Shown here: in pieces, positions 10,783 through 52,261 of the stretch
Layout: every line of letters starts with the position of its first letter
How positions within the stretch are numbered: position 1 is the stretch's first letter
Source of the DNA: a virus
Virus record (IMG/VR): IMGVR_UViG_3300038722_000002
Span: 19,540-83,539 of that record
Direction: 5' to 3' (one strand)
DNA: 64,000 nucleotides
Notes under the pieces: model-generated
Database searches by the model: none
What the model was told of the DNA's origin: nothing
The model's input: the letters and a program-made list of their open reading frames with translations, nothing else
Program-made: the position numbers and the translations under genes

Positions 10783-11361
10783 CTAAGGAGTTGTTACAAC
10801 TATATCAATGGGAATAGGATTAGGGTCATCCTCCCCTTCTTTCAATTCACCATCTATATCTACGGTATCAATGAAGCCATCTGACTCCACATCCACGTAA
10901 CGGTCATTTACATTAACCACTAAGCTGAATGAACTTGATTCTACCCATTTATCAGCCAACTTCTGAGGGAGGCTGATAACAGGGTTTGTATTAACTATTA
11001 AAACTTCTACTTCTGTTTCAATAGAATTTCTTACACGTTCTAATCTGAAATACGTTTCTAAGTCGTGTGCTATCTTTACAGCATCGTTGTATCCATACAC
11101 AGTATAATTAAGCAGAAGCTCATAATGTGTTTCGTACATCTTGTTGCCGTTTAGGTCTATTCCTTCATTGAACAACCAACCTGCTTCCTGACGTGTCTGT
11201 AATAAATCTAAGACCACGTAAGGGTAATCTGGTTTAGCAGGTTTCTGCCTTGCTCGTATGACCGAAGGATGTGTCCCATCGATGAGAGATAGTTGATCTC
11301 CTACCCCGTCTGCTGCCACACGAATAAACTTACCAAGGATTGCATCGTAATCTATTGCCAC
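10783..11361 (-). CDS. Tail terminator / neck protein
   Basis: KPDYPYVVL motif; last neck gene before the sheath region. Confidence 0.7.
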   Translation of the reverse strand: MAIDYDAILGKFIRVAADGVGDQLSLIDGTHPSVIRARQKPAKPDYPYVVLDLLQTRQEAGWLFNEGIDLNGNKMYETHYELLLNYTVYGYNDAVKIAHDLETYFRLERVRNSIETEVEVLIVNTNPVISLPQKLADKWVESSSFSLVVNVNDRYVDVESDGFIDTVDIDGELKEGEDDPNPIPIDIVVTTP

Positions 11362-11747: not shown

Positions 11748-12241
11748 TAAGGTTTCACCACATTATCTACACTTGTTTTATATGCGTAAGCTGCTTTCAA
11801 TGCACCTGTATCTTCAAGAGGAGCATCAAACCCCTTCTCTTTGATTGTACTTCTGGCGTTAGGAGTTAAGGCTGAACTATTACCGAACAACTCTTTACCA
11901 CTATCTCTCACTGCCTGCCCTATCTTATCCAAGAACATTCCCATAGCTCCCACACGTTGTTGACTCTGTTTCCAGTTGACCAACTCTTTACGTACATCCA
12001 ATGTATTGATTGAACGCTTGGCGTTGTGAGCAACGATGGTATTAACTGGACGGGGTGGAATGTTTCTTTCAGGGTTTCCGAAGTGGTGATAAGCTAATAA
12101 TTCAGGGAAGCTCATACCACTGTAGTGTGTACCTTGTGACGCAAAACAGCCTACTTCTACTTTCTGTTCATCTAACTGCTTAAGATCGTTAAGAAGTTGC
12201 TGTAACTTCTGACTTCTCTTTTTTAGGCTTACTTTTAACAT
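11747..12241 (-). CDS. Neck / tail completion protein (HK97 gp10-like)
   Basis: HHFG...IPPRP and PNARSTIKEKGFDAPLEDTGAL motifs. Confidence 0.8.
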   Translation of the reverse strand: MLKVSLKKRSQKLQQLLNDLKQLDEQKVEVGCFASQGTHYSGMSFPELLAYHHFGNPERNIPPRPVNTIVAHNAKRSINTLDVRKELVNWKQSQQRVGAMGMFLDKIGQAVRDSGKELFGNSSALTPNARSTIKEKGFDAPLEDTGALKAAYAYKTSVDNVVKP

Positions 12242-12323
12242 TACGTTTAGCCTTTGGTTTTACTTTACTTTCTTCTTGCTCCAAGACAACTCCGTCTTTG
12301 GATACTTTACGTTTGATAATCAA
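12189..12323 (-). CDS. Small Lys-rich hypothetical protein (44 aa, TTG start)
   Basis: Manual translation MIIKRKVSKDGVVLEQEESKVKPKAKRNVKSKPKKEKSEVTATS; GGAG SD upstream; fills the gap between adaptor and neck genes. Confidence 0.5.
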   Translation of the reverse strand: MIIKRKVSKDGVVLEQEESKVKPKAKRNVKSKPKKEKSEVTATS

Positions 12324-12733
12324 TATTCATCTCCGCAGCAAGGGTTAATATCAGGAGGACAAGAAGTTGTAATCTTAATACCACCTTTAGCCTTCAATCC
12401 GTAATATCCAAAGATAGGACAAATATCACGTAATGAATCTATGTAGTCATCCCACCCTTGTTTAGCTGAACTACCATCGAAGTACGATACTTCAACTTCA
12501 TCGGTGCGTTGTTTTTGGATACCACCTGTTGCTGCGCCTACATTAGCAGCATTTACACCAGCAAGACTTCGTAATGATTTACAAAGCACTTCTGCGTAAT
12601 TAGAGTCATCGTCACCTACGTCAGCAATAATGTACTCATTAATATTTAACATCTGTGCGTCGGATAAACTATTACTTGGCGGGAGCCAGAGTTTATCGTC
12701 AGCTAATAGTTTATCTCTATCTATTGCTGCCAT
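12320..12733 (-). CDS. Head-tail adaptor / virion structural protein
   Basis: First gene after the capsid; QKQRTDEVEVSY beta-hairpin typical of adaptors. Confidence 0.65.
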   Translation of the reverse strand: MAAIDRDKLLADDKLWLPPSNSLSDAQMLNINEYIIADVGDDDSNYAEVLCKSLRSLAGVNAANVGAATGGIQKQRTDEVEVSYFDGSSAKQGWDDYIDSLRDICPIFGYYGLKAKGGIKITTSCPPDINPCCGDEY

Positions 12734-12792
12734 TTATGTTTTACCTAATGTTATCCTTTATTATTAACGTCTAAGTTATCCACCTAAAAGTT

Positions 12793-12822
12793 AATAATAA
12801 AGGAGCTGCGTTAACAGCTCCT
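12793..12822 (-). terminator. Intrinsic terminator after the major capsid gene
   Basis: AGGAGCTG/CAGCTCCT stem (12801-12822), followed on the minus strand by TTTATTATT. Confidence 0.75.
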
Positions 12823-12834
12823 AAACAACTAATA

Positions 12835-13938
12835 TTAGTCTGAGGTAGTCAGAGCAATAATTAGTTTAGGGTTGATGTTCATAAAGAGCTTATTAGACTC
12901 TTGTGCAACATGAACACCAGTACGGTTAGAGACTTTACTCTGAGTGTACATAGGCAATGCAGTGGTGTTTACATTCTCACGGTCTTGAGCAGGAGCAAAA
13001 GCACGTTTAAACAATACATCACAACCTACAGGTACAACGTAAGCATCTGCGTCTGCAATCAACTTAGTGCCTTTGATTGAGGCGGTGTAACGGATGTAAC
13101 GGAAACCGTCATGTGAATCGAAGTATTGATACTGGAAGATACCAGAACCGCTACCGAAGTTGTCACGCGGAACTTCCATAGATGCTAGATCCAATGGGCC
13201 ACGAATGTCACGTGCCAAGCCTTCTTGCTTCTCAATATCGAAACGAGAATTATAGAAGTCTTTACCACACAAGATAACAGGACGGGTCATAGAACCACCT
13301 ACGTTATCCAACTCTTCGTGTAGCTGGTCGTAGATTGCCGCGAACTCACTAATGTGATCGTTAGCTGAACCCAAAGTCATATCGATCTTAGCGGGACGAG
13401 TTGTACCGTAGATGTCATTGTAGTAGTCGTAAGTTGCGTTAGGGCCACCAGCTTCATAGTTAGTGTCACCAGTAAGCAAACTAGCGAAACCTAGCTCGTC
13501 ATCCAAGTCCCAAGCCTTACGAGATTTCTTCAACATCTGAGCAATTACATACTCTTCTGTCATCAATTCGTTTGTGCCAGCCTGACGCTTGTTTGCGTAA
13601 TCTTTAGGAGCTACATTGTAGCTAAGACCACGTGAACCTACGGTGTAGATCAACTGGCGACCTTTGTCTTTACTTAGACGATCACCATAGGCTTCAAAAG
13701 TTTTACCGTTAGGAAGCTGTAGAGTTTCCTGTAGGTCATCATACTTGATGGTGTTGGTTTCTAGGTAAACGTCATCAGTTGAGTTACCGAACAAGGCAGT
13801 CAACAGCATAGGTTTAGATTCGAAACGCTCAACTACACTTAGTTCAACATTCTCCATCTCGAAAGCATTATCAAGAGAAGCCGACAGTGCTTTGTTCATA
13901 CCAGCTAGGGATTGTTCTTCATTAATCTTAATAGTCAT
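12835..13938 (-). CDS. Major capsid protein (phage capsid E-like)
   Basis: 367 aa after the decoration gene and followed by a terminator; FAPAQD...VNT...ESNKLFMNINPKLII C-terminus of the capsid-E type. Confidence 0.88.
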   Translation of the reverse strand: MTIKINEEQSLAGMNKALSASLDNAFEMENVELSVVERFESKPMLLTALFGNSTDDVYLETNTIKYDDLQETLQLPNGKTFEAYGDRLSKDKGRQLIYTVGSRGLSYNVAPKDYANKRQAGTNELMTEEYVIAQMLKKSRKAWDLDDELGFASLLTGDTNYEAGGPNATYDYYNDIYGTTRPAKIDMTLGSANDHISEFAAIYDQLHEELDNVGGSMTRPVILCGKDFYNSRFDIEKQEGLARDIRGPLDLASMEVPRDNFGSGSGIFQYQYFDSHDGFRYIRYTASIKGTKLIADADAYVVPVGCDVLFKRAFAPAQDRENVNTTALPMYTQSKVSNRTGVHVAQESNKLFMNINPKLIIALTTSD

Positions 13939-17800: not shown

Positions 17801-19423
17801 TTAGGACTCCTTGTATTTAGGTGTTTCTTGTAAGGTGGCTGTGTAACTGTCTATGACGTTAGCCGCTCTTGATTCGTTTTGTTGTTGATTTCTTGTTACT
17901 ATGTTTACTGTCCTACCTGAACACGCTGCGGCAAACGCCATACTCATAGCATCCACCCAATCATCTTTACGTGCGCTATTACTTTTCTTTTCAGGGTCAA
18001 AGGCTTCAAGTTCAGAATACAGGGCGTTCAGGGTAGGTTTATCAAACGTACTTTCAACTATGTGTACTAAACCTAATGAACACGCCTGACAGAAGGGTTG
18101 GAATGCAACCAACTTCTTATTAGGTGTATTATGTGCAGACTTATCTTCCTTAACCTTCAGTCCTTCCTCTTGGAAACGACCTAACGTATAGTAATGATCT
18201 GTCGCAGCACCACCTGTATCTTTTGTAAATACCCAAGTGGTGTCGTCGCCGTCATGGTGGGCTTGTCGGATAAGCATGGAGTCTCTAGCCCCTGCTAATT
18301 TCCGCATCCTCCCATGAACCCTTTCCTTAGCATCTAATTTAAGCTGCTGAACGTCTGTATAGTCGTCTAGGTAGTCACCTATTAACCAATACTCTCCATT
18401 CCTATCCTTAGCTATCTTAGGGGATGTGGCTGTGAAGTCTGGTTGGGCGTAAACCTCACTAGGTTCACTATACCCCTTATCCGTTCCTCTGTACCACTTG
18501 AGATCAGGAGGTATATCTGCCAAGGAGCTAACCTTCTCTCCTGCTTCTCCTCTTAACCAATGTCGTTGCCATAACGACTGACTACGTGGACGAGAGTACC
18601 AGTTACCCCACAATTGAGTATCACGTTCATGGTCTGGTAGGTTATTCAACTCCGATAGGTACACAGGGTTCGCTTTCAAACCTAATGGGTTATCGAATAT
18701 ATTAAAGAAGAAGTATGTGAACTTCTTCGGACGTATGTAAATCGTTTCATCCGAGTTAGGTATATCAACCCACAAACACTCAGGGTAGTTCTCTTGAAAC
18801 CACTCTTCCGATGGGCCGAAGATGAACTCACCTTCTTTTACTATGAACCACCTAATGTCCCCTCGTTTGTCGGGGTCTGGTGAACCATCCTCTTTCAAGT
18901 AGTATTCTACTAGAGGTAGGCACCAGCTATCAGGGTTAGGGTTGAGTGTCCCGACACAAAAGGAGTTCATATCTGCCTCTGAACGCAGACATGTCATCAA
19001 GAAGGTTACTTGGCTCTTAGAGAACTGATCGATTTCATCGAATCCTATAAGTGAGTAGCCTTTACCTCGGTGTGAACTCTTGTCGTCCTCGTAGAACATG
19101 TGACGATAGAATTGCTTTGCTCCCGAAGGCCACACCCAAGCCTTATCTGAAATCTTAGGTTGTGCGCCGAAGAGGGGATATTGGTTTTCACCTTTCTCCC
19201 ACAGGCCGTTAGCACCCATAATTTCATCGTATTGTCTTCGGAAGAATATCCCCCTGAAACTCTTATCCTCTGCAAAGCAGCAGGGGATCATACTAAGTAT
19301 TTCTGACTTGCCACCGAATCGTGCGCCACCCCATAACATGAAGTCCACATCACCGATCATACTGAAAGCTAACTCTTGATTACCTTCTTGGGGGCGTACA
19401 TCTTGCCACGTCTCATATCCCAT
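17801..19423 (-). CDS. terL: Terminase large subunit
   Basis: Walker A GGARFGGKS, Walker B IGFDEIDQF, coupling motif TLNP, nuclease-domain KDDWVDA. Confidence 0.95.
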   Translation of the reverse strand: MGYETWQDVRPQEGNQELAFSMIGDVDFMLWGGARFGGKSEILSMIPCCFAEDKSFRGIFFRRQYDEIMGANGLWEKGENQYPLFGAQPKISDKAWVWPSGAKQFYRHMFYEDDKSSHRGKGYSLIGFDEIDQFSKSQVTFLMTCLRSEADMNSFCVGTLNPNPDSWCLPLVEYYLKEDGSPDPDKRGDIRWFIVKEGEFIFGPSEEWFQENYPECLWVDIPNSDETIYIRPKKFTYFFFNIFDNPLGLKANPVYLSELNNLPDHERDTQLWGNWYSRPRSQSLWQRHWLRGEAGEKVSSLADIPPDLKWYRGTDKGYSEPSEVYAQPDFTATSPKIAKDRNGEYWLIGDYLDDYTDVQQLKLDAKERVHGRMRKLAGARDSMLIRQAHHDGDDTTWVFTKDTGGAATDHYYTLGRFQEEGLKVKEDKSAHNTPNKKLVAFQPFCQACSLGLVHIVESTFDKPTLNALYSELEAFDPEKKSNSARKDDWVDAMSMAFAAACSGRTVNIVTRNQQQNESRAANVIDSYTATLQETPKYKES

Positions 19424-20560: not shown

Positions 20561-20665
20561 TATCACCTCTGTGAGTGTTAGTTGTTATTTAGGGGTTGAC
20601 ACGTCCGAAAGGACATGAGATACTTCTGTTTACTGGGGAGTTTATTTCCTCCCTCTATAATATGT

Positions 20666-20695
20666 ATTCTGCTACTAACTTTTGCCATTTGTCAA
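20666..20695 (-). promoter_or_regulatory. Promoter of the virion operon (TTGACA-N18-CAGAAT class)
   Basis: Minus strand reads CTTGACAAATGGCAAAAGTTAGTAGCAGAATA, a near copy of the promoter at 21034-21063. Confidence 0.65.
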
Positions 20696-20732
20696 GTAAT
20701 TTTTAACATTTTTTACAAAAAAAGGGAAATTA

Positions 20733-21044
20733 ATGAAAAATATGAAGAATTTACCTCCTATTCCACATGAATCTGAGGTCAAACAGGCGTTTTATGGACA
20801 CATCCAAGAGACTCTATCCAGTGGGTCGTTGAATATTCCTGATGTTGGACTGCAAGAAATCACATCATTTAGCGGAGGACACATCGGTTATAACAGCCCT
20901 ATTAGCATCCTAAAGAGTGAAAATACAGACCTTCTCCTCTATTCTGTCGGGGGTATCGGCACACTAGATGTCTATAATAACTACTCTGAAAGGCAAGAAA
21001 TGAATGTATTTGTCCGTAAAGCTAAGAAAGTGCTTGACAAATAG
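20733..21044 (+). CDS. Hypothetical protein
   Basis: 103-aa ORF between two divergent promoters; upstream TTGACA-N17-GATACT at about 20596-20624. Confidence 0.6.
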   Translation: MKNMKNLPPIPHESEVKQAFYGHIQETLSSGSLNIPDVGLQEITSFSGGHIGYNSPISILKSENTDLLLYSVGGIGTLDVYNNYSERQEMNVFVRKAKKVLDK

Positions 21045-21063
21045 ATTAAATTAGTAGCAGAAT
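21034..21063 (+). promoter_or_regulatory. Promoter (TTGACA-N18-CAGAAT class) upstream of structured RNA 1
   Basis: CTTGACAAATAGATTAAATTAGTAGCAGAATAG. Confidence 0.65.
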
Positions 21064-21069
21064 AGGAAT

Positions 21070-21630
21070 TAGAGTAATACAGAAGGTGTGGTTGTAAGAC
21101 TACACCTGTACAAAATACATCACAATATACATTCCACCTGAGTGTGTATTCTAATGTATTTATACATAGAGGCGTTTCGGCAAGGTTTCCCTCGCGTGGT
21201 AGCAAAAGCAAAACCCGACATATTGGTATATATGGAGCTGTAATGGATGACAGCGTTGAAGTGTAGTATCAAGAGTATACAATAACAAATCCTAGCTCTG
21301 ACGTCCTCTGTCAACTGGGTAGGTGGAAATGGAACAAGGCCCGATCACTAAACATACCGAATACCCTAAGATAGTCGTAGGTATGTTTACTCACTAGGGT
21401 TAAGTAGTGGGAGAATGCGTGTACCAAGGGGCAGGTCACGATAACGCAGAACCGATGACGTTATAGAGTAAACTCTTTATTTGGAATAAGTAATAATGAA
21501 AGTGACCAGTTAGGTCATATTACTTATATTGTACTTTACTAGGTACAATGGTTATATCTTTCAAGCAGTTATATATTATTAGAATATAATTGTTAGGATA
21601 GACCACCGAATAGAGAGGGCCTAGTTGCAT
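21070..21630 (+). ncRNA. Large structured non-coding RNA 1 (~550 nt, unclassified)
   Basis: More than 10 hairpins with G-U pairs and a GNRA loop; long-range helices 21168-75/21301-09 and 21312-18/21621-27; possible pseudoknot 21132-39/21321-28; has its own promoter. Confidence 0.7.
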
Positions 21631-21654
21631 CTGAAACTTGAGAATGGAGAGAAT

Positions 21655-22458
21655 ATGGGTGATTTACTACTGAAATTTAATGTACTAAAAGAGATAGAAG
21701 GGAGTGATGAAAACTCCTTCCAGCAGTTCGCTAATGATATGGCTTTGAAATACGGTATATTAGGAACTACTAATACAGTGATAGATTCGCTGTGGACTAA
21801 GAAGCGGCTGAACGTGAAAGACTACTTGCCTCCTAAGAAGAAGAAACGTAAGAAGCAGGAGAGACGTGGCTACCACTACAGTCCTAACGCAGACCTAGAG
21901 TGGTTATCCTTGAGACGTGATGTGATTAAGGTATTAGGAACTCGGTGTCTTTGCTGTAGAAAGAAACCAAAGAAGACTAAAGACCTACACGTTGACCACG
22001 TTCTACCAAGGAGTAGACATCCACACCTAACGTATGACATAATGAACCTTCAAGTGTTGTGTAAGACGTGTAACTACGATAAGTCAGATATACACGCAAC
22101 GGATTACAGGACAGACGAACAACGAGAGAGGTTATTGATTATGAAGGGTGTTAGAGGTAATTGTGTTGTGAGTGAGGATATGGTAGATGATGTGTATGAT
22201 GTACTAGGGGATATCCCCACTGAATACCTACAGGAGCTACACAGCTTACTTGAGAAGACGAAGAACAGTAAAGTAATGCTAGAGGTAGAGAATGATAAAC
22301 TATGCTCTGTAGTGTACCTGATAAGCTCTAAGGGCAGACATGTCGCCCACTGTAGTAAGAATAAGATAGTTGTCCGTGAGTATCGCAACTGGAGCAACGA
22401 CAACCGAGAGTTTAAGAATATAACCAAGGAGTTGTTGATTAAATGCAGGAAAGATTAG
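21655..22458 (+). CDS. HNH endonuclease with a Lys/Arg-rich segment and an extra C-terminal domain
   Basis: CLCC...LHVDHVLPRS...NLQVLCKTCNYDK HNH/Zn motif. Start moved from TTG 21625 to ATG 21655, which follows a GGAGAG SD. Confidence 0.85.
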   Translation: MGDLLLKFNVLKEIEGSDENSFQQFANDMALKYGILGTTNTVIDSLWTKKRLNVKDYLPPKKKKRKKQERRGYHYSPNADLEWLSLRRDVIKVLGTRCLCCRKKPKKTKDLHVDHVLPRSRHPHLTYDIMNLQVLCKTCNYDKSDIHATDYRTDEQRERLLIMKGVRGNCVVSEDMVDDVYDVLGDIPTEYLQELHSLLEKTKNSKVMLEVENDKLCSVVYLISSKGRHVAHCSKNKIVVREYRNWSNDNREFKNITKELLIKCRKD

Positions 22459-22661
22459 AAGAGTTTATAAATAAGTTAAAAGAAAGGTTGACGGCAGAAT
22501 GGGGAGACACTATAATCGTCACCAAGATACAGGCAAGAGGATATGGCCCTACAATGAATGTGATACAAATTAAGAATAAAGGACTTGCAGAAACATACGG
22601 AGTGTGGGAGACTAGAACAACTGGAGGGGGTAGCTTAGTGCAGTGGTGCTACTTCACATAA
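22443..22661 (+). CDS. Hypothetical protein
   Basis: 72-aa ORF overlapping the HNH stop; also contains a sigma70-like promoter, so its coding status is uncertain. Confidence 0.4.
   Translation: MQERLEEFINKLKERLTAEWGDTIIVTKIQARGYGPTMNVIQIKNKGLAETYGVWETRTTGGGSLVQWCYFT
22488..22516 (+). promoter_or_regulatory. Sigma70-type promoter upstream of the tRNA-like RNA cluster
   Basis: TTGACG-N17-TATAAT. Confidence 0.7.
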
Positions 22662-22668
22662 GATTAAC

Positions 22669-22708
22669 GGGTAGCTAGGAATTTGGAGGTTAAAATCCTC
22701 CCTGCCCT
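22669..22708 (+). ncRNA. tRNA top-half mimic (acceptor stem plus T arm only)
   Basis: GGGTAG/CTGCCC acceptor-like stem stacked on a GGAGG-TTAAAAT-CCTCC T arm; a 10-nt linker replaces the D and anticodon arms. Confidence 0.5.
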
Positions 22709-22911
22709 AACCTACGAGCTGTGTGACTACAGCTAGTACAGCCCTGTACGATGAGAAGTAAGTTGTGGTGACTTGCATGGGAGGCCGCGTAAGGTGGGCT
22801 GAAAACACCTCAGTCTTGTACAATGACTTAAAACTTAGGGGTGGAGCTTCGGTGTAGAAATCTTTGAGAGGTGTATCCAGTTGCTAGTCTGGTTAAAATT
22901 AGCACGAATTA

Positions 22912-23032
22912 CGGGGTGTAGCTTAAAAGGTAGAGCAGTTGGGCCAGCCGCCGCTAACTAGTATCGCGCAAAGGCGTTGACTAGTATCGGAAAGGGCGCT
23001 AATCAGTACGGTCTCGATAACCGTCACCCCGT
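22912..23032 (+). ncRNA. tRNA-like RNA with the anticodon loop replaced by a 56-nt extension
   Basis: Acceptor CGGGGTG/CACCCCG, TA at positions 8-9, D arm GCTT-AAAAGGTA-GAGC, stem GTTGG/CTAAT, T arm ACGGT-CTCGATA-ACCGT. Confidence 0.75.
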
Positions 23033-28033: not shown

Positions 28034-28789
28034 TTGGGAAAGCAAGATAAGCATTGTAATCAACGATCTAATAAACGTAAAGATAAACAGCGCAAAGGTG
28101 AACGTGAGATACGCGAGAAGTTTGTAGAGGAGAGGGTACATCGTGCGCCACCAATATTGGCGAAGACACAGAACCAACGTAAGTATATGCAGGTACTTCG
28201 TACAGAGAAGTTAATTGTATGTCGTGGAAGTGCGGGTGTGGGCAAGAGCTTTCTAAGTAGTGCTTTAGCAGGGGACGCCCTATTGCGCGGCGACATTAGT
28301 AAAGTGATTGTTTGCCGTCCCAATGTAGCTATGGGGGAGAGTATTGGGTATAGAAAGGGTTCTGACGAAGACAAATTATTTCCTTTTGTCCGCCCAATGC
28401 TAGATACGCTCAAGAAACGTATGGGTTCGGGTAGTTATGAAGTCGCTATAGCTAGTAAGCAGATCGAGATCCAAGCACTAGACGCCATACGAGGGATGTC
28501 TTTTGATGGTAACGTGGTAATACTGTGTGATGAGATGTCTAACTCAACACCTGCGGAAATCCGTAGTGTAGTAACTCGCCTCGGTGAGCAAGCCCAGATG
28601 GTCATTATGGGCGACCCCACACAGACAGATATACGAGGAGAGAATGGACTGGACTATATCTGTGGTCTAATAGAGAAATACGACATCCCCGATTCAGCTA
28701 TTGTAGAGTTCACTTCTGCAGATATTGTACGTTCAGGTATTGCTAAGGCGTTTGTTACAGCCTTCGAGAAGGAGGGTGTTAATGGCTAA
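28034..28789 (+). CDS. phoH: PhoH-like ATPase
   Basis: GSAGVGKS, RGMSF, DEMSN, TRLGE, GDPTQTD and DIVRS motifs. Confidence 0.95.
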   Translation: MGKQDKHCNQRSNKRKDKQRKGEREIREKFVEERVHRAPPILAKTQNQRKYMQVLRTEKLIVCRGSAGVGKSFLSSALAGDALLRGDISKVIVCRPNVAMGESIGYRKGSDEDKLFPFVRPMLDTLKKRMGSGSYEVAIASKQIEIQALDAIRGMSFDGNVVILCDEMSNSTPAEIRSVVTRLGEQAQMVIMGDPTQTDIRGENGLDYICGLIEKYDIPDSAIVEFTSADIVRSGIAKAFVTAFEKEGVNG

Positions 28790-29546
28790 GAAACTAGACA
28801 TACGTTCTGGGGATGTATTTGGGGATTATACCGTAGTCACTGAAGTACCCAAAACCCAACAGAACCAGAGGAGGTTTCTACTTCGTTGTGTTTGCGGTAC
28901 AGAGAAAGAATTGGATCTCCCCTCTTTTAAGTACAATAATAGTGGGTGTGGGTGCCGTAGCACAGATAAGATGGTAGCGTCAAAACTGAAGAGGGAGGAT
29001 TTTCATGGTATGACAGGAAGCCCCGAATACAGGTCTTGGGCACGAATCAAGAGTCGGTGCTTCAATCCTAATAGTGCTGATTTTCCTGACTACGGGGGCA
29101 GGGGTATCACTATGTCCCAAGAGTGGCGGGATAGTTTCCCCAAGTTCTACGAACACATCGGCCCCAAGCCTTCCGATGGTAAGAGATACAGTGTAGACAG
29201 GGTAGACAACACCAAAGGATATGTACCTGATAATGTCAGGTGGGCTACGGACGCACAGCAGGCACGAAACCAGAACGGGAGGTCGAAAGCAAACACTACA
29301 GGGGTTACAGGTGTTTACTGGGACACTAAAGTACACCCGACTGGCAGGGATTCTACTCGGTACGCCGTAGCGCAATGGGTATCTCTGGAGGGAGTCCGTA
29401 AGAAGAAATGCTTCTCGGTCAAAAAACTCGGAGAAGAACTAGCCTTCTTAGCAGCCTGCGAATGCCGAGATAAGCAAATGACCTTGCTAAACTTACAAGG
29501 GGCAGGTTATACTGACCAGCACCTTAACAATAGGAGTTATACATGA
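28782..29546 (+). CDS. HNH homing endonuclease with AP2-like C-terminal domain
   Basis: HGMTGSPEYRSW, YGGRGI, SVDRVDNTKGYVPDNVRWAT and NTTGVTGV...FSVKKLG motifs. Likely start ATG 28782 (GGAGG SD). Confidence 0.9.
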   Translation: MAKKLDIRSGDVFGDYTVVTEVPKTQQNQRRFLLRCVCGTEKELDLPSFKYNNSGCGCRSTDKMVASKLKREDFHGMTGSPEYRSWARIKSRCFNPNSADFPDYGGRGITMSQEWRDSFPKFYEHIGPKPSDGKRYSVDRVDNTKGYVPDNVRWATDAQQARNQNGRSKANTTGVTGVYWDTKVHPTGRDSTRYAVAQWVSLEGVRKKKCFSVKKLGEELAFLAACECRDKQMTLLNLQGAGYTDQHLNNRSYT

Positions 29547-35218: not shown

Positions 35219-36585
35219 CTTAGCAGCCCCTACAAGCCGTTTTAAGGCACATTTCACACCACCCTATACAATCACACTAGCAAACCCCTAAACGCTCCCT
35301 ATGGACGTTCTAGGGCTGCTGTGAGGCATCCTAATATACTCTACTCTCATATATAGTACAGGAACACCTCCTCCACCTAAAGGGATAACCCCCTTATTCC
35401 CTCCCAAATATCCTCACACACAACCTCTTCCCCAATAATAGCAACACATTCCCTGTAAGGACACGCCGACACAAACCCCCTCAATATACCCCAAATATCC
35501 ACATATCTACCACTAAATTATATGTAGCACATTAATTCCCCACCAAAAATCTAATATTCCCTCCTAAAATATCCTTGACACCTACCATCACATATATGAA
35601 AATATCAAATAGCTGAGAGTAGTCTCAGGAGACAACCACACCCCCTGCCTCAAATAAAAATATCAACAACAACACAATGAGGGCATCCTCCGTTCGCCCG
35701 TTCAGGAATATCATGTTATCAATGATAGAGATAATAAGGACATGTCAGCGGCTAACCTCCCCAACATACTCCCCCAACTACCTCCTCCCCGCATATATGT
35801 GATTGTAAGATGGTAGGAGAATGGCGAAGCATTCTCATAGGTGGGACACAGGGGTAGGGTTGTACCCCTGTATACAGTATAAGGAGATAATACTCTAGGG
35901 GAGCGTATAGGCAGGCAGAATGCGGTGTGTAGACGTGTTGTGTGGTGATATTCCTAGTGCTCATTTCTAATAATAGATTCAATATTTAGCTGTTTAACAC
36001 CCTACCACACCTCCTATAGAAAGTCATTATAATTCTAAAATATCCTTAGAACCATTAGCTATATCCCCCGACAATATTCCCCCATATACCTTATATACCC
36101 CTTTTATGTTCCCCCTTATAACCTTTTGTTATACAGTTCGCATAACATAGATTATGTTAAATAGCCTATAACGATATTATTTGATGAACCATATGTTGGT
36201 ACATATAAACCATAATATGGTACATAGATATAACTAATAGTTATAACAACTTCAAGGCGCTACTACCATTGTATCATAAGAGGATATTTGAGGTAAAGTG
36301 GAGTTTTATACCTATTTGTTATATAAAATGAGGTGTTAAGTGGGAAATGGTATAAGAAAAAGGGCGATTATTGTTGACTTTGTGGGGTTTGTGGTGTTAA
36401 ACATATAGGGGGATATAATATTGTTAGGATATTATCAACATATTGGGTATAATATTATCAACATATAGTGTACATATTGGATAGAATATATATACATATC
36501 ACATAGAATATTGATAACATATACGCACTAGAATATATACCCCCAGCATATGCACCCCTGTATATTATCCCCATTACTATTATAT

Positions 36586-36714
36586 GCGTCTATATAGACG
36601 CCTACCCTCTATACACCTTTTAAGGTGTAACACAACTCACACCCCAGCACTCGCTCCCCCTAACATTGCTCCCCCTATATGGCAATACCACTATATAAGC
36701 GTCTATATAGACGC
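36586..36714. repeat. Twin perfect 16-bp palindromes GCGTCTATATAGACGC
   Basis: Copies at 36586-36601 and 36699-36714. Confidence 0.9.
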
Positions 36715-36946
36715 ATAGTAGGGCAGGCGGCAAGGTTAGCCGCTATCATACCTCTAAACGCCTATATCTACCTATCATACCTCTCTCACTAACACAACGC
36801 CCCTAGAACGTCCTCTATTGCGTTCTAAGGGCGTTGTAAGGTTGGGCTTTACGTTAGTATTAGATTGTCCCTAAACGCTCTGAATAGCTATAGGTTATAA
36901 GCGTGAGGGTTGTTAGAACTAAATGTTATATTAAATTGTAGGTGTT

Positions 36947-36970
36947 AAAAAGCCGCTTAATAGCGGCTTG
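36947..36970 (-). terminator. Intrinsic terminator at the end of the early gene cluster
   Basis: AAGCCGCT-TAAT-AGCGGCTT hairpin with a short T-run on the minus strand. Confidence 0.7.
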
Positions 36971-36983
36971 TGTGTGGGGGGTG

Positions 36984-41815: not shown

Positions 41816-43993
41816 CTAGATTTGTGAAGCAATCTTAGCTCGAATGTCTCGGAGGGTGGTTTTATTGTACAACTTACCATCCTTGAACACTGTACGAAGC
41901 AAACCTTGCCCTTCTTGCTCAGGTGTCTGCTCCTGATATAGAGTAATAACACCTTCCTCATTATGGTCTACACGCAACAAACCTTTAGCTGACTTCTTAC
42001 CTTGATCAGTCTTAGGGTCTTTACCGAAGTCAATCTGCTCACCTTTGTCGTTCCATGCACAGGTAGCCTTGATAGCTGACCCGTGAGTGTCACGGGTGAC
42101 ATATTGGTAACTGTAGGAGCCGATGCCAAGCACTACGCTAGGAGCAAACCCCTTAGCCATCAAACGGGTGTGGATCTCTTTTTGACGCTCTAGGGTGATA
42201 CTGTCACCGTAGATAGCACCGATATGGGAGTCTAGTAGTTTGTATCCCTCTGAGGTGGTTGTGCCACCGAAGATGTCCCAGAGGGATTCTACTAGACCTT
42301 TGGCTTCTGTAGAGCTAACTTCCTCGTACTCGTTATCATACATAGTATCATAGGTGCCCCCTGAAGACACGTAGTAGAATTTATCATCAGCTTTGTTCAG
42401 GTACAGCCTTTTTCTGCCTCGTATTGTTAAGGTCTGTATGTTATCCACTGTCTCATACTCCAATCCACACAGCACGCTAACAGGGTCTCCAGAATCTGGA
42501 CGAATGACCGTGGTACCGTCACGAGCCATGATATCATCTTTCAATAGTGGTAAACCTTCCTCAACAAACTTCCAGAAGTCATAGCTGTCTGATACATGAG
42601 AAACAATCCCACTTGGAACCTCTGTGAACAACTTCTCCCGTACAAAAGCAACCTCAGCATCAAACTTACTGATGCCCCGCTCCTTCTCTAGTACCGCAAT
42701 GTAGCTTGTTGCGATTGCATGTTCTGTAGCTGGTACACTGCAACCTACCAACTCAGTCTCGCAGTCAGCACCGTAGTATATCTCAGCCAAATCAATAGCT
42801 GGAACAGTATCAGTGCCAGCAAAACCTGCTGCTAGATGACCAAAACCTGACATTGCAGCTGCTTGTGGGCCAAAACAACCTCGCATGGAGAAATCGTGAC
42901 ACATAAACGGGACAGTTGCCTCGTCTAAGCCTGTCTTACGGAAGCTCTCTACAGTTTGCTTCATGTAAGCTGTAGCTGTAGTGGCTGAAGTCTGCATAGG
43001 CCATACATACGTGCTGATGATAGTCTCTAGGAAGCCTACGAGCCAAGGGTATCCGTCTACTGTGTTGGTTACAGTAAAGCACGGTACACCGTAGGGGCAA
43101 AAAGTACCCTCTTCCATAGACTTAATCTCAATTGGAAGATAACCTAAGTCATGTAGCTCCTCAAAATGTTTCACATCGAAGTCACTGCCGAAATAGTTAT
43201 CTAATCGGCGCTTCAAGCTACGGACAGCACCTTCCTTACTCAGGTTAAAGAATGTATTATTCCACTCATTTACCATGTAGTGCATCATCATATACTGCAA
43301 ACCTACGTGGACAACACCGAAGTCCTCTGGGATGTAGGATAGTCGTCCACTCCTAGCAGTGTAATTTTCATATAGGCGCACAATATTGGTGTGCAGGAAC
43401 TTCTTGTGTGCAAATTTGTAACCGTCTGCTTTAGTGATAGCTGACATACTATTCTCCTCATTGGTTTTATCGTATATTCTATTAATATGCCTCAGGAAAC
43501 CTCCCTTGGTCATATCTCTCTTCATGTGGTTACAGGCACCACAGCAAGGTAGACAATTACTATAGGTATACCCTAAGTTGTTGTCAACCCGATCTACTCC
43601 GTTCATCTCTACTTTGAAAATACCCCTAGCTTTCGGTTGGCTTCCACAGTAGTTACAAGAATCTGTTATTAGTGAGATGAACTCTTCATCAGTTAATTGG
43701 TACTCGTACCCCCTACTTTTAGCGGCTTGCTTATAGCTGTTGATCTCTTTATTGTACGCTCGGAGATTTTTGGGTATTCTAGGTACACTCCTTGTGCACT
43801 TGTTGCAACACTTCTTAGGCCGCTGTCTCCGCCTGAGTTGTGAAGTAGTAATATAGCAGGTAACCCCACAACTACACAGGCACTTCCACTTTGGTGTACC
43901 ACCAATTAACTCCCTGTCACTGATCACCTTTAGTTTACCAAACATCTTCCCTGTCAAGGCATCATCCGCTAGGTGTGTTGACCCATTCTTCAT
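41816..43993 (-). CDS. nadV: Nicotinamide phosphoribosyltransferase-like enzyme (Nampt/Namat) with an in-frame N-terminal HNH endonuclease
   Basis: Residues 183-725 carry DGYK.AH, HDFSMRG, SVPATEH, VSDSYD, VIRPDSGDP, IYGDSIT and KSAKG. Residues 1-182 carry CNYCG...GVDRVDNNLGY...NCLPCCGACNHMK. Internal SD plus ATG at 43447. Confidence 0.92.
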   Translation of the reverse strand: MKNGSTHLADDALTGKMFGKLKVISDRELIGGTPKWKCLCSCGVTCYITTSQLRRRQRPKKCCNKCTRSVPRIPKNLRAYNKEINSYKQAAKSRGYEYQLTDEEFISLITDSCNYCGSQPKARGIFKVEMNGVDRVDNNLGYTYSNCLPCCGACNHMKRDMTKGGFLRHINRIYDKTNEENSMSAITKADGYKFAHKKFLHTNIVRLYENYTARSGRLSYIPEDFGVVHVGLQYMMMHYMVNEWNNTFFNLSKEGAVRSLKRRLDNYFGSDFDVKHFEELHDLGYLPIEIKSMEEGTFCPYGVPCFTVTNTVDGYPWLVGFLETIISTYVWPMQTSATTATAYMKQTVESFRKTGLDEATVPFMCHDFSMRGCFGPQAAAMSGFGHLAAGFAGTDTVPAIDLAEIYYGADCETELVGCSVPATEHAIATSYIAVLEKERGISKFDAEVAFVREKLFTEVPSGIVSHVSDSYDFWKFVEEGLPLLKDDIMARDGTTVIRPDSGDPVSVLCGLEYETVDNIQTLTIRGRKRLYLNKADDKFYYVSSGGTYDTMYDNEYEEVSSTEAKGLVESLWDIFGGTTTSEGYKLLDSHIGAIYGDSITLERQKEIHTRLMAKGFAPSVVLGIGSYSYQYVTRDTHGSAIKATCAWNDKGEQIDFGKDPKTDQGKKSAKGLLRVDHNEEGVITLYQEQTPEQEGQGLLRTVFKDGKLYNKTTLRDIRAKIASQI

Positions 43994-51602: not shown

Positions 51603-51632
51603 TTGACTTTTTATCAAAATTACTGGCAGAAT
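51603..51632 (+). promoter_or_regulatory. Promoter (TTGACT-N18-CAGAAT class) upstream of structured RNA 2
   Basis: CTTGACTTTTTATCAAAATTACTGGCAGAATAG. Confidence 0.6.
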
Positions 51633-51637
51633 AGAAG

Positions 51638-52195
51638 GTAGGATAGTGTGTTAAATATTACATCATCCTGAGAATTAGAAATAAATGAGAATATTCTGGT
51701 GTTTGTGGTGGTTGGAAACAATCATTAACGGGACGAGAGGAGTTCCAAGGTTGTCCTTCTGTATAGCTACAGTATAGGCATGTGGTAACAGTAATGTCCA
51801 CACTCTTCTCTCATACGTCTGACGTAGCGACACCTGCTTAGTCCGAACCTATCAAGACTGGGCGTAAAACGAGTTAAGCGTGACGTGTTCAATTAGGTAT
51901 GATTAGTTTATAGCTATTGCTTATTATACCACTTGAACTGTATGCAGGTCTTACACTGCTTTAAAAGTGTGAGCTATCACAGGGTCATTCCCTATATCAA
52001 TGCTCGATAATTAGAATATGTGGTTAGATATGTTTGATTAATATCTTAGATTAGCAATATCGGCTAATCTACCTCTTGTCAATAGGTTATATTATAACAC
52101 TCCAAAGTAGATTGGTTAATTAGAATAGTAATTCTATCACCCAAGGCTACTTTGTCTTGTCGTGCCTGTAAGAAAGGTAATGAATATAATAGTAA
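51638..52195 (+). ncRNA. Large structured non-coding RNA 2 (~550 nt, unclassified)
   Basis: Many hairpins with G-U pairs and GAAA/GTAA loops; helix 51735-43/51802-10; possible pseudoknot 51846-52/52082-88; no ORF called. Confidence 0.68.
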
Positions 52196-52261
52196 ATAAA
52201 ATGTTGACATGGAGATGTCAGACCATTATAGTGACATCAACTTAAACAAGAGGAGAGGAAT

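What the first reader, a model, noticed from the sequence alone, without database searches (positions are those of the whole stretch)
21034..21630. Large, densely folded, probably pseudoknotted ncRNA (~550 nt) with its own promoter
Seen: almost the whole interval pairs. Hairpins include AGGTGTGGTT-GTAA-GACTACACCT (21084-21107; two G-U pairs and a GNRA loop, which point to a + strand RNA), TAAACATACC/GGTATGTTTA, CTCACTA/TAGTGGG, ATAACG/CGTTAT, ATAAGTAATA/TATTACTTAT, ATTGTAC/GTACAAT and GCAGTTATAT/ATATAATTGT. AGAGGCGT 21168-75 with ACGTCCTCT 21301-09 closes a multibranch domain. CAACTGG 21312-18 with CTAGTTG 21621-27, plus GCCC 21339-42 with GGGC 21617-20, close the 3' half. TTCCACCT (21132-39, spanning a hairpin loop) is complementary to AGGTGGAA (21321-28), suggesting a pseudoknot. 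It starts right after a TTGACA-N18-CAGAAT promoter. Inference: a large RNA comparable in size to GOLLD/ROOL/HEARO-type RNAs; I do not recognise it as any of them, or as tmRNA, RNase P or an intron.
Basis: partly seen in the sequence, partly recalled or inferred. Interest (0 to 1): 0.88.

Follow-up and report, generated by a model that had tools for sequence, protein, structure and literature searches.

The report
Orphan structured noncoding stretch in phage
A 600-base stretch of a marine phage genome that codes for no protein, sits behind a phage-specific promoter and folds unusually well is probably a large noncoding RNA, but it has no known relatives, so this cannot yet be proven.

Summary
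The sequence features are real. Window 21034-21655 has stops in all six frames and every quoted helix is at its stated place. A 31-nt promoter-like motif occurs only 3 times in the 83.5-kb contig. The + strand folds at -178.1 kcal/mol, z -4.73. Its excess over shuffles (-31.0 kcal) beats 102 of 102 same-size background strand-windows. No Rfam family matches.

The support stops there. I found no homologue by blastn, nhmmer, covariance models, promoter-pattern scans or relatives fetched through the terminase. No covariation test was therefore possible, and no RNA run is on record.

- Strand choice by folding energy is not significant.
- The pseudoknot 8-mer is within chance.
- Local 240-nt windows are unremarkable.

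The downstream HNH protein looks like an ordinary phage homing-type nuclease, not IscB-like.

A second, sequence-unrelated 600-nt ORF-free stretch (51603-52261) has the same promoter motif and similar folding. It is followed by a separate sigma70 promoter, which favours deliberate noncoding transcription units.

Verdict: a plausible new large phage ncRNA, unproven. The scan had already noted this stretch and its sibling on this same genome.

The parts
21034..21064 (+). Promoter-like 31-nt motif (TTGACA-N18-CAGAAT plus conserved spacer bases). The predicted start of RNA1 is about 21070 (inferred).
   Evidence: one of exactly 3 copies in the 83.5-kb contig.
21070..21630 (+). RNA1: an ORF-free, densely hairpinned stretch, the candidate large ncRNA or structured leader.
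21655..22458 (+). HNH endonuclease ORF (267 aa, HNH at residues 98-144). GGAGAG lies 5 nt before the ATG and there is no terminator between RNA1 and the ORF.
20665..20695 (-). Second copy of the promoter motif, heading the terminase/virion operon. It forms a 57-nt imperfect inverted repeat with the RNA1 copy around ORF 20733-21044.
   Evidence: I1, 74% complementary.
51603..51633 (+). Third copy of the promoter motif, heading RNA2.
51639..52200 (+). RNA2: a sibling ORF-free structured stretch with no sequence similarity to RNA1. It is followed by a separate TTGACA-N17-TATAGT promoter at 52204-52232.
22488..22516 (+). Near-consensus sigma70-type promoter (TTGACG-N17-TATAAT, 11 of 12) after the HNH gene. 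This suggests that the RNA1-HNH unit is separate from the tRNA-like and nrd genes downstream.
22637..22709 (+). Degenerate tRNA-like element downstream (22.2 bits, below the 29-bit threshold).
   Evidence: ARAGORN calls nothing here.

Best explanation
RNA1 is a phage-encoded, roughly 560-nt, highly structured non-coding transcript read from the + strand. It starts about 7 nt after a phage-specific promoter motif that it shares with the virion (terminase) operon and with a second ORF-free stretch, RNA2. I think it acts as an RNA in its own right: a stable, possibly processed, large structured RNA of the same general kind as ROOL, GOLLD or the ICP1 long ncRNA. It lies in a phage, next to tRNA-type genes, and would be made together with virion genes. 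I do not think it guides the HNH nuclease.

Shown: absence of coding capacity, the repeated promoter motif, thermodynamic stability and well-definedness above the genome background, and absence from Rfam.

Inferred: that the motif is a promoter, that the + strand is the transcribed one, that the RNA is stable, and any function.
For: - The stretch is ORF-free under any single stop reassignment, and its residual ORF pieces have no Pfam family.
- The 31-nt motif occurs 3 times in 83.5 kb and nowhere else. Each copy stands at the head of a transcription direction at a strand switch.
- The whole-length fold excess of -31.0 kcal is lower than 102 of 102 background windows. Ensemble diversity equals the lowest of 64 background values.
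- RNA2 has the same motif and similar statistics: z -4.08, excess -23.1 kcal, diversity 0.149.
- RNA2 contains no ORF and is followed by its own near-consensus sigma70 promoter for the next gene. A leader role cannot explain it.
- Terminase relatives carry a demonstrably structured, conserved roughly 400-nt non-coding RNA in the equivalent place, divergent from the virion operon and next to tRNAs. It has 7 of 82 pairs with compensatory changes between only 2 sequences. This phage group therefore does keep large RNAs there.
- Precedents from passages I read: ROOL and GOLLD are encoded in phages, often near tRNA islands (PMC12286853). Vibrio phage ICP1's most abundant transcript is a roughly 800-nt RNA from an ORF-less 1-kb gap (PMC7567579).
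Against: - No homologue was found anywhere, so there is no covariation.
  - blastn against 50,697 phage records found nothing.
  - nhmmer against 85 loci found nothing.
  - BLAST against the whole records of 10 terminase relatives gave only 14-31-nt chance matches.
  - The promoter-pattern scan of IMG/VR gave 2 unrelated coding matches.
- Models of the relatives' RNA do not find RNA1 at a significant level. R1's best hit is 15.9 bits, E 2.1; R2 finds nothing in the window.
- RNA1 and RNA2 share no sequence beyond the promoter: 114 of 300 and 257 of 300 shuffles scored at least as high.
- Strand asymmetry is within background noise, and hairpins are equally well defined on the - strand. A DNA-level element is therefore not excluded.
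- Local 240-nt windows are not outliers.
- There is no terminator at the 3' end.
Confidence: 0.4

Rival explanations
1. Cis-acting leader. The stretch is only the long structured 5' untranslated region of the HNH homing-endonuclease mRNA. It sets the timing, stability or translation of a potentially harmful nuclease and has no function as a separate RNA.
For: - There is no terminator between RNA1 and the HNH ORF, and an RBS-like GGAGAG lies 5 nt before the ATG.
- The phage carries several HNH genes: 28725-29543, and an HNH domain fused to NAMPT at 41816-43990. These are typical free-standing homing genes that need tight control (established knowledge of T4-type homing endonucleases, recalled).
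Against: - RNA2 has the same promoter motif and size but no ORF behind it before a fresh promoter.
- In the minimum-energy fold the last 17 nt, including the RBS, are unpaired, so no obvious occlusion is seen.
- 585 nt is far longer than known homing-gene leaders (recalled).
Confidence: 0.2
2. DNA-level or primer element. The stretch is a control or replication-origin region at a divergent gene-cluster boundary. The promoter would make a structured pre-primer or R-loop RNA running into the AT-rich 3' half, as in ColE1 RNA II or T4 oriF/oriG. Alternatively the hairpins act as DNA.
For: - RNA1 and RNA2 both sit exactly at the two minima of cumulative GC skew and at -/+ strand switches.
- Hairpin definition is symmetric on the two strands, and the strand asymmetry is not significant.
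- Inverted 8-mers are enriched.
- RNA2 directly precedes the replication module of helicase, primase-helicase, DNA polymerase and exonuclease.
- The comparison with ColE1 RNA II (about 555 nt) and with T4 origins is recalled, not tested.
Against: - There are no iterons or direct-repeat families in either stretch; only two-copy 10-19-nt chance-size repeats occur.
- GC skew here follows gene orientation, so it is not independent evidence.
- A better iteron-bearing candidate exists elsewhere: repeated ATTATCAACATAT-type units at about 36390-36530, in a 1.8-kb ORF-free tract.
Confidence: 0.15
3. No function. The stretch is spacer or decayed sequence (a dead gene, a dead mobile element, or co-converted flank of the HNH homing gene) that happens to be hairpin-rich, and the promoter merely serves the HNH gene.
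For: - It is an orphan with no relatives in any collection searched.
- Neighbouring tRNA-like elements look degenerate (22.2 bits against the 29-bit threshold; ARAGORN finds 0), so RNA genes do decay in this region.
- Three of 102 background windows came within 4 kcal of its fold excess.
Against: - Phage genomes are tightly packed.
- Two separate 600-nt ORF-free stretches share a rare 31-nt motif.
- Both rank at or near the extreme of fold excess and well-definedness.
- The residual ORF pieces match no family.
Confidence: 0.2
4. Known catalytic or guide RNA missed by Rfam. The stretch would be a group I or II intron carrying the HNH gene, or an IscB/HEARO-like guide RNA for the HNH protein.
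For: - The arrangement RNA-then-HNH-ORF resembles HEARO/IscB and intron-encoded HNH genes.
- Short R/S-like complementary motifs (GACTA at about 21099 and TAGTC at about 21374) were noticed by eye.
Against: - No intron or HEARO match appears even at E<=10. The same Rfam group I model found 4 introns at 69-95 bits in the relatives.
- The flanking ORFs (103 aa and 72 aa) match no family that could be a split gene.
- The HNH protein has 267 aa with a single HNH domain and no RuvC. Its nearest clusters are small viral HNH proteins.
Confidence: 0.04

Closest known systems
ROOL RNA (Rfam family)
   Same: It is phage-encoded, about 580 nt, multi-hairpin, often near tRNA islands and of unknown function (PMC12286853, passages read). 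RNA1 is about 560 nt, lies in a phage, and sits 1 kb upstream of tRNA-like elements.
   Different: There is no covariance-model match at gathering score or at E<=10. The host range differs: a marine gammaproteobacterial-type phage by terminase, against Firmicutes and rumen for ROOL. No covariation-supported structure is available to compare.
GOLLD RNA (Rfam family)
   Same: It is a large phage RNA near tRNAs. Marine metagenomic members exist, and expression rises in lytic growth (PMC12286853; PMC7567579).
   Different: GOLLD has a universally conserved 3' region that the Rfam model should find, and there is no match. RNA1 is shorter than the typical 800 nt.
ICP1 long ncRNA (about 800 nt, between gp139 and gp140)
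   Same: It is an ORF-less gap in a large lytic phage of a marine gammaproteobacterium that gives the most abundant phage transcript. It belongs to no known family and has no known function (PMC7567579, passages read).
   Different: There is no sequence similarity: blastn of RNA1 against the phage collection found nothing. ICP1 has no tRNAs. Expression of RNA1 is untested.
HEARO / IscB omega-RNA
   Same: A structured RNA lies immediately 5' of an ORF with an HNH domain, in the same orientation.
   Different: There is no HEARO match. The protein has only an HNH domain and 267 aa, with no RuvC or PLMP parts. The IscB architecture is recalled from knowledge.
Conserved roughly 400-nt RNA of terminase relatives (L009:102-507, L011:1599-1995, partly L008)
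   Same: It has the same relative place and orientation: divergent from the virion operon, by tRNA genes, ending about 30 nt before the next RBS. It is structured, with 7 of 82 pairs compensatory. A 15-nt 3' motif is shared with the RNA1 3' closing strand. I derived that motif after seeing the hit, so it is a weak lead only.
   Different: There is no significant sequence or model match (best E 5; E 2.1; none). The internal hairpin layout differs.
ColE1 RNA II / T4 oriF-type primer transcripts
   Same: A promoter is followed by a structured RNA of about 550 nt that ends in an AT-rich tract at a strand-switch or skew minimum.
   Different: There is no origin evidence and no iterons. The comparison is recalled, not tested.

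Membership tests
ROOL (Rfam) | Match to the family covariance model at gathering score | tested here: not met
   (whole window, 0 matches). (E<=10 on 20600-22600, no ROOL row).
GOLLD (Rfam) | Conserved 3' domain matching the family covariance model | tested here: not met
   no GOLLD row.
ROOL/GOLLD kind | Phage-encoded and close to tRNA genes | tested here: inconclusive
   It is a phage contig. Only sub-threshold tRNA-like elements lie 1.0-1.4 kb downstream, and ARAGORN finds 0.
ROOL/GOLLD kind | Conserved secondary structure supported by covariation | not testable with these tools
   No homologue was found.
HEARO / IscB omega-RNA | Match to the HEARO covariance model | tested here: not met
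HEARO / IscB omega-RNA | Adjacent IscB-type protein (split RuvC with inserted HNH, about 400-500 aa) | tested here: not met
   The protein has 267 aa, and Pfam finds only HNH and HNH_5 at residues 98-144. Relatives cover 27-46% of the query, the HNH domain only. The nearest atlas clusters are small viral HNH proteins.
Group I intron | Match to Intron_gpI model (P3-P9 core) | tested here: not met
   There is no match at E<=10. The same model scores 69-95 bits on 4 introns in relatives L007, L013 and L015.
Group I or II intron | Interrupts a recognisable gene whose exons join in frame | tested here: inconclusive
   The flanking ORFs of 103 aa and 72 aa match no Pfam or PHROG family, so no split gene can be recognised.
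Group II intron | Domain V/VI and D1-D4 model matches | tested here: not met
   no group II rows at E<=10.
tRNA / tmRNA / RNase P / 6S | Model or ARAGORN match | tested here: not met
Replication origin | Iterons or direct-repeat arrays plus an AT-rich unwinding element | tested here: not met
   There are no repeat families beyond two-copy 10-19-mers. The 3' half is AT-rich by eye.

The most novel reading that the evidence does not exclude
RNA1 and RNA2 are two unrelated members of a so-far undescribed set of large (about 560-600 nt) ornate RNAs of marine Pseudoalteromonas-phage-like viruses. They would be transcribed from the same phage-specific promoter class as the virion operon. Each phage lineage would keep its own fast-evolving large RNA next to its tRNA-type genes; the covariation-supported roughly 400-nt RNA of relatives L009 and L011 would be another example. 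That would make ROOL/GOLLD-like RNAs a general, repeatedly re-invented feature of large lytic phages rather than two isolated families.
Probability: 0.25. Interest if true: 0.7.

Novelty: new variant of a known kind. Interest (0 to 1): 0.47.

Why it matters
Large structured phage RNAs such as ROOL, GOLLD and the ICP1 ncRNA are abundant, conserved within their families and still without a function. If RNA1 and RNA2 are real, they add a marine, gammaproteobacterial-phage case with two features that make function testable. First, they share a rare promoter motif with the virion operon, which points to timing. Second, there are two dissimilar RNAs in one genome. Together with the covariation-supported RNA in terminase relatives, this would suggest that large RNAs near tRNA genes are a recurrent phage invention. 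If they are not real RNAs, the finding is just two hairpin-rich control regions and is ordinary.

Tried and rejected
**Homologue hunts that found nothing**
- blastn of 20950-21700 against 50,697 phage records.
- The search for related loci with the HNH protein and with the 103-aa ORF in viral contigs.
- The terminase as a single query in viral contigs and metagenome contigs gave only 37%-identical relatives.
- nhmmer of RNA1 and RNA2 against 85 loci.
- blastn of the window regions against L007-L015.
- The phrog_6452 neighbour protein in 5 relatives' records: 0 of 5.
- The promoter pattern in viral contigs gave 2 loci holding one identical, unrelated coding sequence.
- The terminase alignment in genome contigs gave a best match of 46%.
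- BLAST of RNA1 against the whole records of 10 relatives gave matches of 14-31 nt, best E 0.018.
- The search of earlier findings under 'relatives' found 0 windows.

**Paralogy of RNA1 and RNA2**
- The MAFFT alignment is not meaningful.
- The Smith-Waterman score of 31.0 was reached by 114 of 300 shuffles. Without the promoters, 26.5 was reached by 257 of 300.
- A short AGAGG-helix resemblance seen by eye is therefore dropped.
- RNA1-RNA2 duplex energy was reached by 11 of 100 shuffles, and whole-length duplexfold is a poor test anyway.

**Link to the relatives' RNA**
- The profile nhmmer best hit has E 5 and lies elsewhere in the window.
- Model R2 has no window hit.
- Model R1's top hit does fall on the RNA1 3' end (21542-21639, +), but at 15.9 bits, E 2.1, with 98 model positions deleted.
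- The 15-nt motif that I then wrote to fit RNA1, L009 and L011 is unique in the window, against 0.02 expected. It was made after the fact, and its only extra match in the loci lies in antisense coding sequence. I rejected it as evidence and keep it as a lead.

**Sequencing runs**
- No RNA holder is listed. There are 7 DNA runs from 4 studies, all marine.
- Read laying on 4 of these 7 runs gave Logan contigs only.
- No differences are listed between 20880 and 22582 in run X4, but cover of 20937-21377 is thin and its pieces are not shown. This says nothing about constraint.

**Other checks**
- The per-hairpin strand comparison is biased, because the hairpins were chosen from the + fold, and I do not use it.
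- The group I R/S-like motifs seen by eye are rejected.
- The third RNA model, structure prediction, complex prediction, the search of protein representatives and the listing of cluster members were not used.
- I did not ask for supplementary files of papers. Sequence tables in the supplements of PMC12286853 might list marine GOLLD or ROOL variants that I could not compare.
Full report
**Context.** The window is bases 19540-83539 of an 83,539-base IMG/VR virus record rated 54% complete. It was assembled from marine metagenomes: 7 DNA runs in 4 studies hold parts of it. By large terminase its nearest named relative is Pseudoalteromonas phage H101, at 50.7% amino-acid identity. The virion genes lie on the - strand up to about 20.7 kb (terminase 17801-19423). 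From 20733 the genes run on the + strand:
- a 103-aa ORF with no family;
- the finding's interval;
- an HNH ORF (21655-22458);
- tRNA-like elements;
- glutaredoxin, NrdA and NrdB.

A second -/+ switch lies at about 51.5-52.3 kb, ahead of the helicase, primase-helicase and DNA-polymerase genes.

- The interval has 14, 22 and 11 stops in the + frames and 9, 10 and 14 in the - frames. All three stop codons occur in each + frame, so no recoding opens it. Four residual ORF pieces match no Pfam family.
- The + strand folds at -178.1 kcal/mol, z -4.73, with 0 of 20 shuffles as good. The - strand folds at -149.5, z -2.72.
- Shuffles are a lenient null, so I also compared with real sequence of this genome.
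  - In 51 evenly spaced 622-nt windows, both strands, the native-minus-shuffle excess averages -5.4 kcal (sd 8.0, lowest -28.7). RNA1 gives -31.0 on + and -23.6 on -.
  - Its ensemble diversity (0.129 per nt on +, 0.125 on -) equals the lowest of 64 background values, whose mean is 0.244, sd 0.058.
  - As a whole, the stretch is therefore the best-folding and best-defined 622-mer sampled.

**Three points are weaker than claimed.**
- A 240-nt sliding scan of all 532 windows does not single the stretch out. Its z+ values are -2.51, -0.56, -0.07, -2.52 and -3.04, and the best 720-nt sum ranks 26th of 528. Several other places are stronger.
- The strand difference (-7.3 kcal) lies within one background sd of 8.6. 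G-U pairs are more frequent on + (24 of 189 against 11 of 170), but that is suggestive only.
- Perfect 8-mer complements number 12 against 3.8 +/- 2.6 expected. Inverted repeats are enriched, but one specific 8-mer 'pseudoknot' means nothing.

**The promoter motif.** TTGAC-N19-CAGAATA occurs three times in the window against 0.47 expected; 1 of 100 shuffles reached 3. The whole contig also holds exactly three copies:
- at 20695-20665 on the - strand, heading the terminase operon;
- at 21034, heading RNA1;
- at 51603, heading a second ORF-free stretch.

The copies share more than the two hexamers. The first two form a 57-nt imperfect inverted repeat around the 103-aa ORF. That this motif is a promoter is an inference.

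**RNA2.**
- It folds at -178.7 kcal/mol, z -4.08 on +, against z -1.70 on -.
- Its excess is -23.1 kcal on + and -12.6 on -, and its diversity is 0.149.
- No Rfam match beyond junk appears at E<=10.
- It has no significant similarity to RNA1.
- It is followed at 52204-52232 by a near-consensus TTGACA-N17-TATAGT promoter for the next gene. It is therefore not needed as a leader.
- Likewise a TTGACG-N17-TATAAT site follows the HNH gene.

This pattern is a private motif, then about 570 nt of structured non-coding sequence, then a fresh sigma70-type promoter. It is my main reason for preferring deliberate non-coding transcription units.

**What it is not.**
- Rfam gives 0 matches at gathering score over the whole window. 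At E<=10 there are only four miRNA/snoRNA matches of 15.5-19.9 bits.
- The group I model that is silent here finds four introns at 69-95 bits in terminase relatives, so the silence is informative.
- ARAGORN finds no tRNA or tmRNA.
- The HNH protein has one HNH domain (residues 98-144).
- Among 24 relatives in 5.8 billion proteins, all but the protein itself cover only 27-46% of it.
- Its nearest atlas clusters are small viral HNH proteins.
- The phage carries at least two more HNH genes.

I see an ordinary free-standing homing-type nuclease and no support for an RNA-guided enzyme.

**The search for relatives failed.** Covariation was the decisive test, and I could not run it.
- Direct nucleotide and profile searches found nothing.
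- The neighbour proteins have no close relatives.
- Through a terminase alignment I obtained 80 IMG/VR loci, the best at 63% identity. None aligns with RNA1 at the nucleotide level.

**What the relatives do show.**
- Their divergent regions hold tRNA genes.
- L009 and L011 (and partly L008) hold a conserved non-coding element of about 400 nt. It is 75% identical over 427 nt, as conserved as their coding DNA.
- That element folds with 82 consensus pairs, of which 7 show compensatory double changes between just two sequences. It matches no Rfam family.
- It sits in the same relative position and orientation as RNA1.
- Covariance models of its two halves do not find RNA1 significantly. R2 finds nothing in the window. 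R1's top hit out of 347 kb of searched strands falls on the RNA1 3' end, but only at E 2.1.
- I record this as a lead, not as evidence.

**Mechanism.** My best reading (0.40) is a stable large structured RNA made from the + strand under the same promoter class as the virion operon. It would act as an RNA of the ROOL, GOLLD or ICP1-ncRNA kind. Passages of PMC12286853 and PMC7567579 document such RNAs in phages. They are often near tRNA islands, accumulate in lytic growth, and have no known function.

The rivals are:
- a pure cis leader for the HNH mRNA (0.20);
- a DNA-level control region or primer-RNA origin (0.15). This is favoured by the skew minima and the strand symmetry. It is weakened by the absence of iterons and by a better iteron-bearing tract near 36.4 kb;
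- functionless spacer (0.20);
- a missed intron or guide RNA (0.04).

**Verdict.** The stretch is a genuine, unusual ORF-free structured region and a reasonable candidate for a new large phage RNA. It is an orphan, with no covariation and no expression data.

Noticed in passing
window 51603-52261: There is a second 600-nt ORF-free stretch (RNA2) with the same 31-nt promoter motif. It gives z -4.08 on + and -1.70 on -, has no Rfam match and no similarity to RNA1, and is followed by its own TTGACA-N17-TATAGT promoter at 52204-52232.
   Followed up: yes
L009:102-507 (-), L011:1599-1995 (-), L008:3196-3274 (-): Terminase relatives carry a conserved non-coding RNA of about 400 nt directly downstream of a tRNA. 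It is 75% identical between L009 and L011, and 7 of 82 consensus pairs show compensatory changes in two sequences. It has no Rfam family and was found in only these 3 IMG/VR contigs. It looks like an undescribed structured phage RNA in its own right.
   Followed up: partly
window 35219-36983: This is a 1.8-kb ORF-free tract at the convergent +/- switch, strongly pyrimidine/C-rich on the + strand. Repeated ATTATCAACATAT-type units, direct and inverted, lie at about 36390-36530. It holds the strongest local fold signals of the window (36481-36720, z+ -7.67). It is a candidate origin, a genome-end region or a further RNA.
   Followed up: no
window 12241-13200: This is the strongest fold excess on both strands in the 240-nt scan (12721-12960: z+ -5.65, z- -9.19). 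It lies among - strand virion genes and is unexplained.
   Followed up: no
window 22637-22709 and 22912-23032: Two tRNA-like elements are not called by ARAGORN. The first scores 22.2 bits on the Rfam tRNA model, below the 29-bit threshold. A strong sigma70-type promoter (22488-22516) lies just upstream, inside the doubtful 72-aa ORF 22443-22661.
   Followed up: partly
L009:701-817 (-): Rfam calls a tRNA here (42.7 bits) that spans 117 nt, which implies a roughly 40-nt insert. This recalls the insert-bearing tRNA-like element of the window.
   Followed up: no
L007:10335-10624 and 10883-11208; L013:9350-9635; L015:1819-2031: Four group I introns (69-95 bits) lie in or beside the terminase/portal region of terminase relatives. 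None is found in the window.
   Followed up: no
window 20655-20711 and 21018-21074: A 57-nt imperfect inverted repeat (74% complementary) is made of the two divergent promoter-motif copies. It brackets the orphan 103-aa ORF 20733-21044.
   Followed up: partly
window 41816-43990 (-) and 28725-29543 (+): An HNH/endonuclease VII-like domain (residues about 11-213) is fused to the N-terminus of a nicotinamide phosphoribosyltransferase. A further free-standing HNH gene follows phoH. The genome is rich in homing-type nucleases.
   Followed up: no
window 20880-22582: In run X4, a strain variant from the same study, no differences are listed across RNA1 plus the HNH gene, while SNP clusters flank it (5 at 20699-20879, 6 at 22583-22863). 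This may be a co-conversion tract of a homing gene, but cover of 20937-21377 is thin.
   Followed up: no
L007:740-1460: The closest IMG/VR relative (terminase 63% identical) has about 2 kb of AT-rich (29-30% GC) ORF-free sequence at its strand switch. It contains a twice-repeated promoter-like roughly 60-nt unit and shows a strong fold excess on both strands (-23 to -28 kcal).
   Followed up: partly
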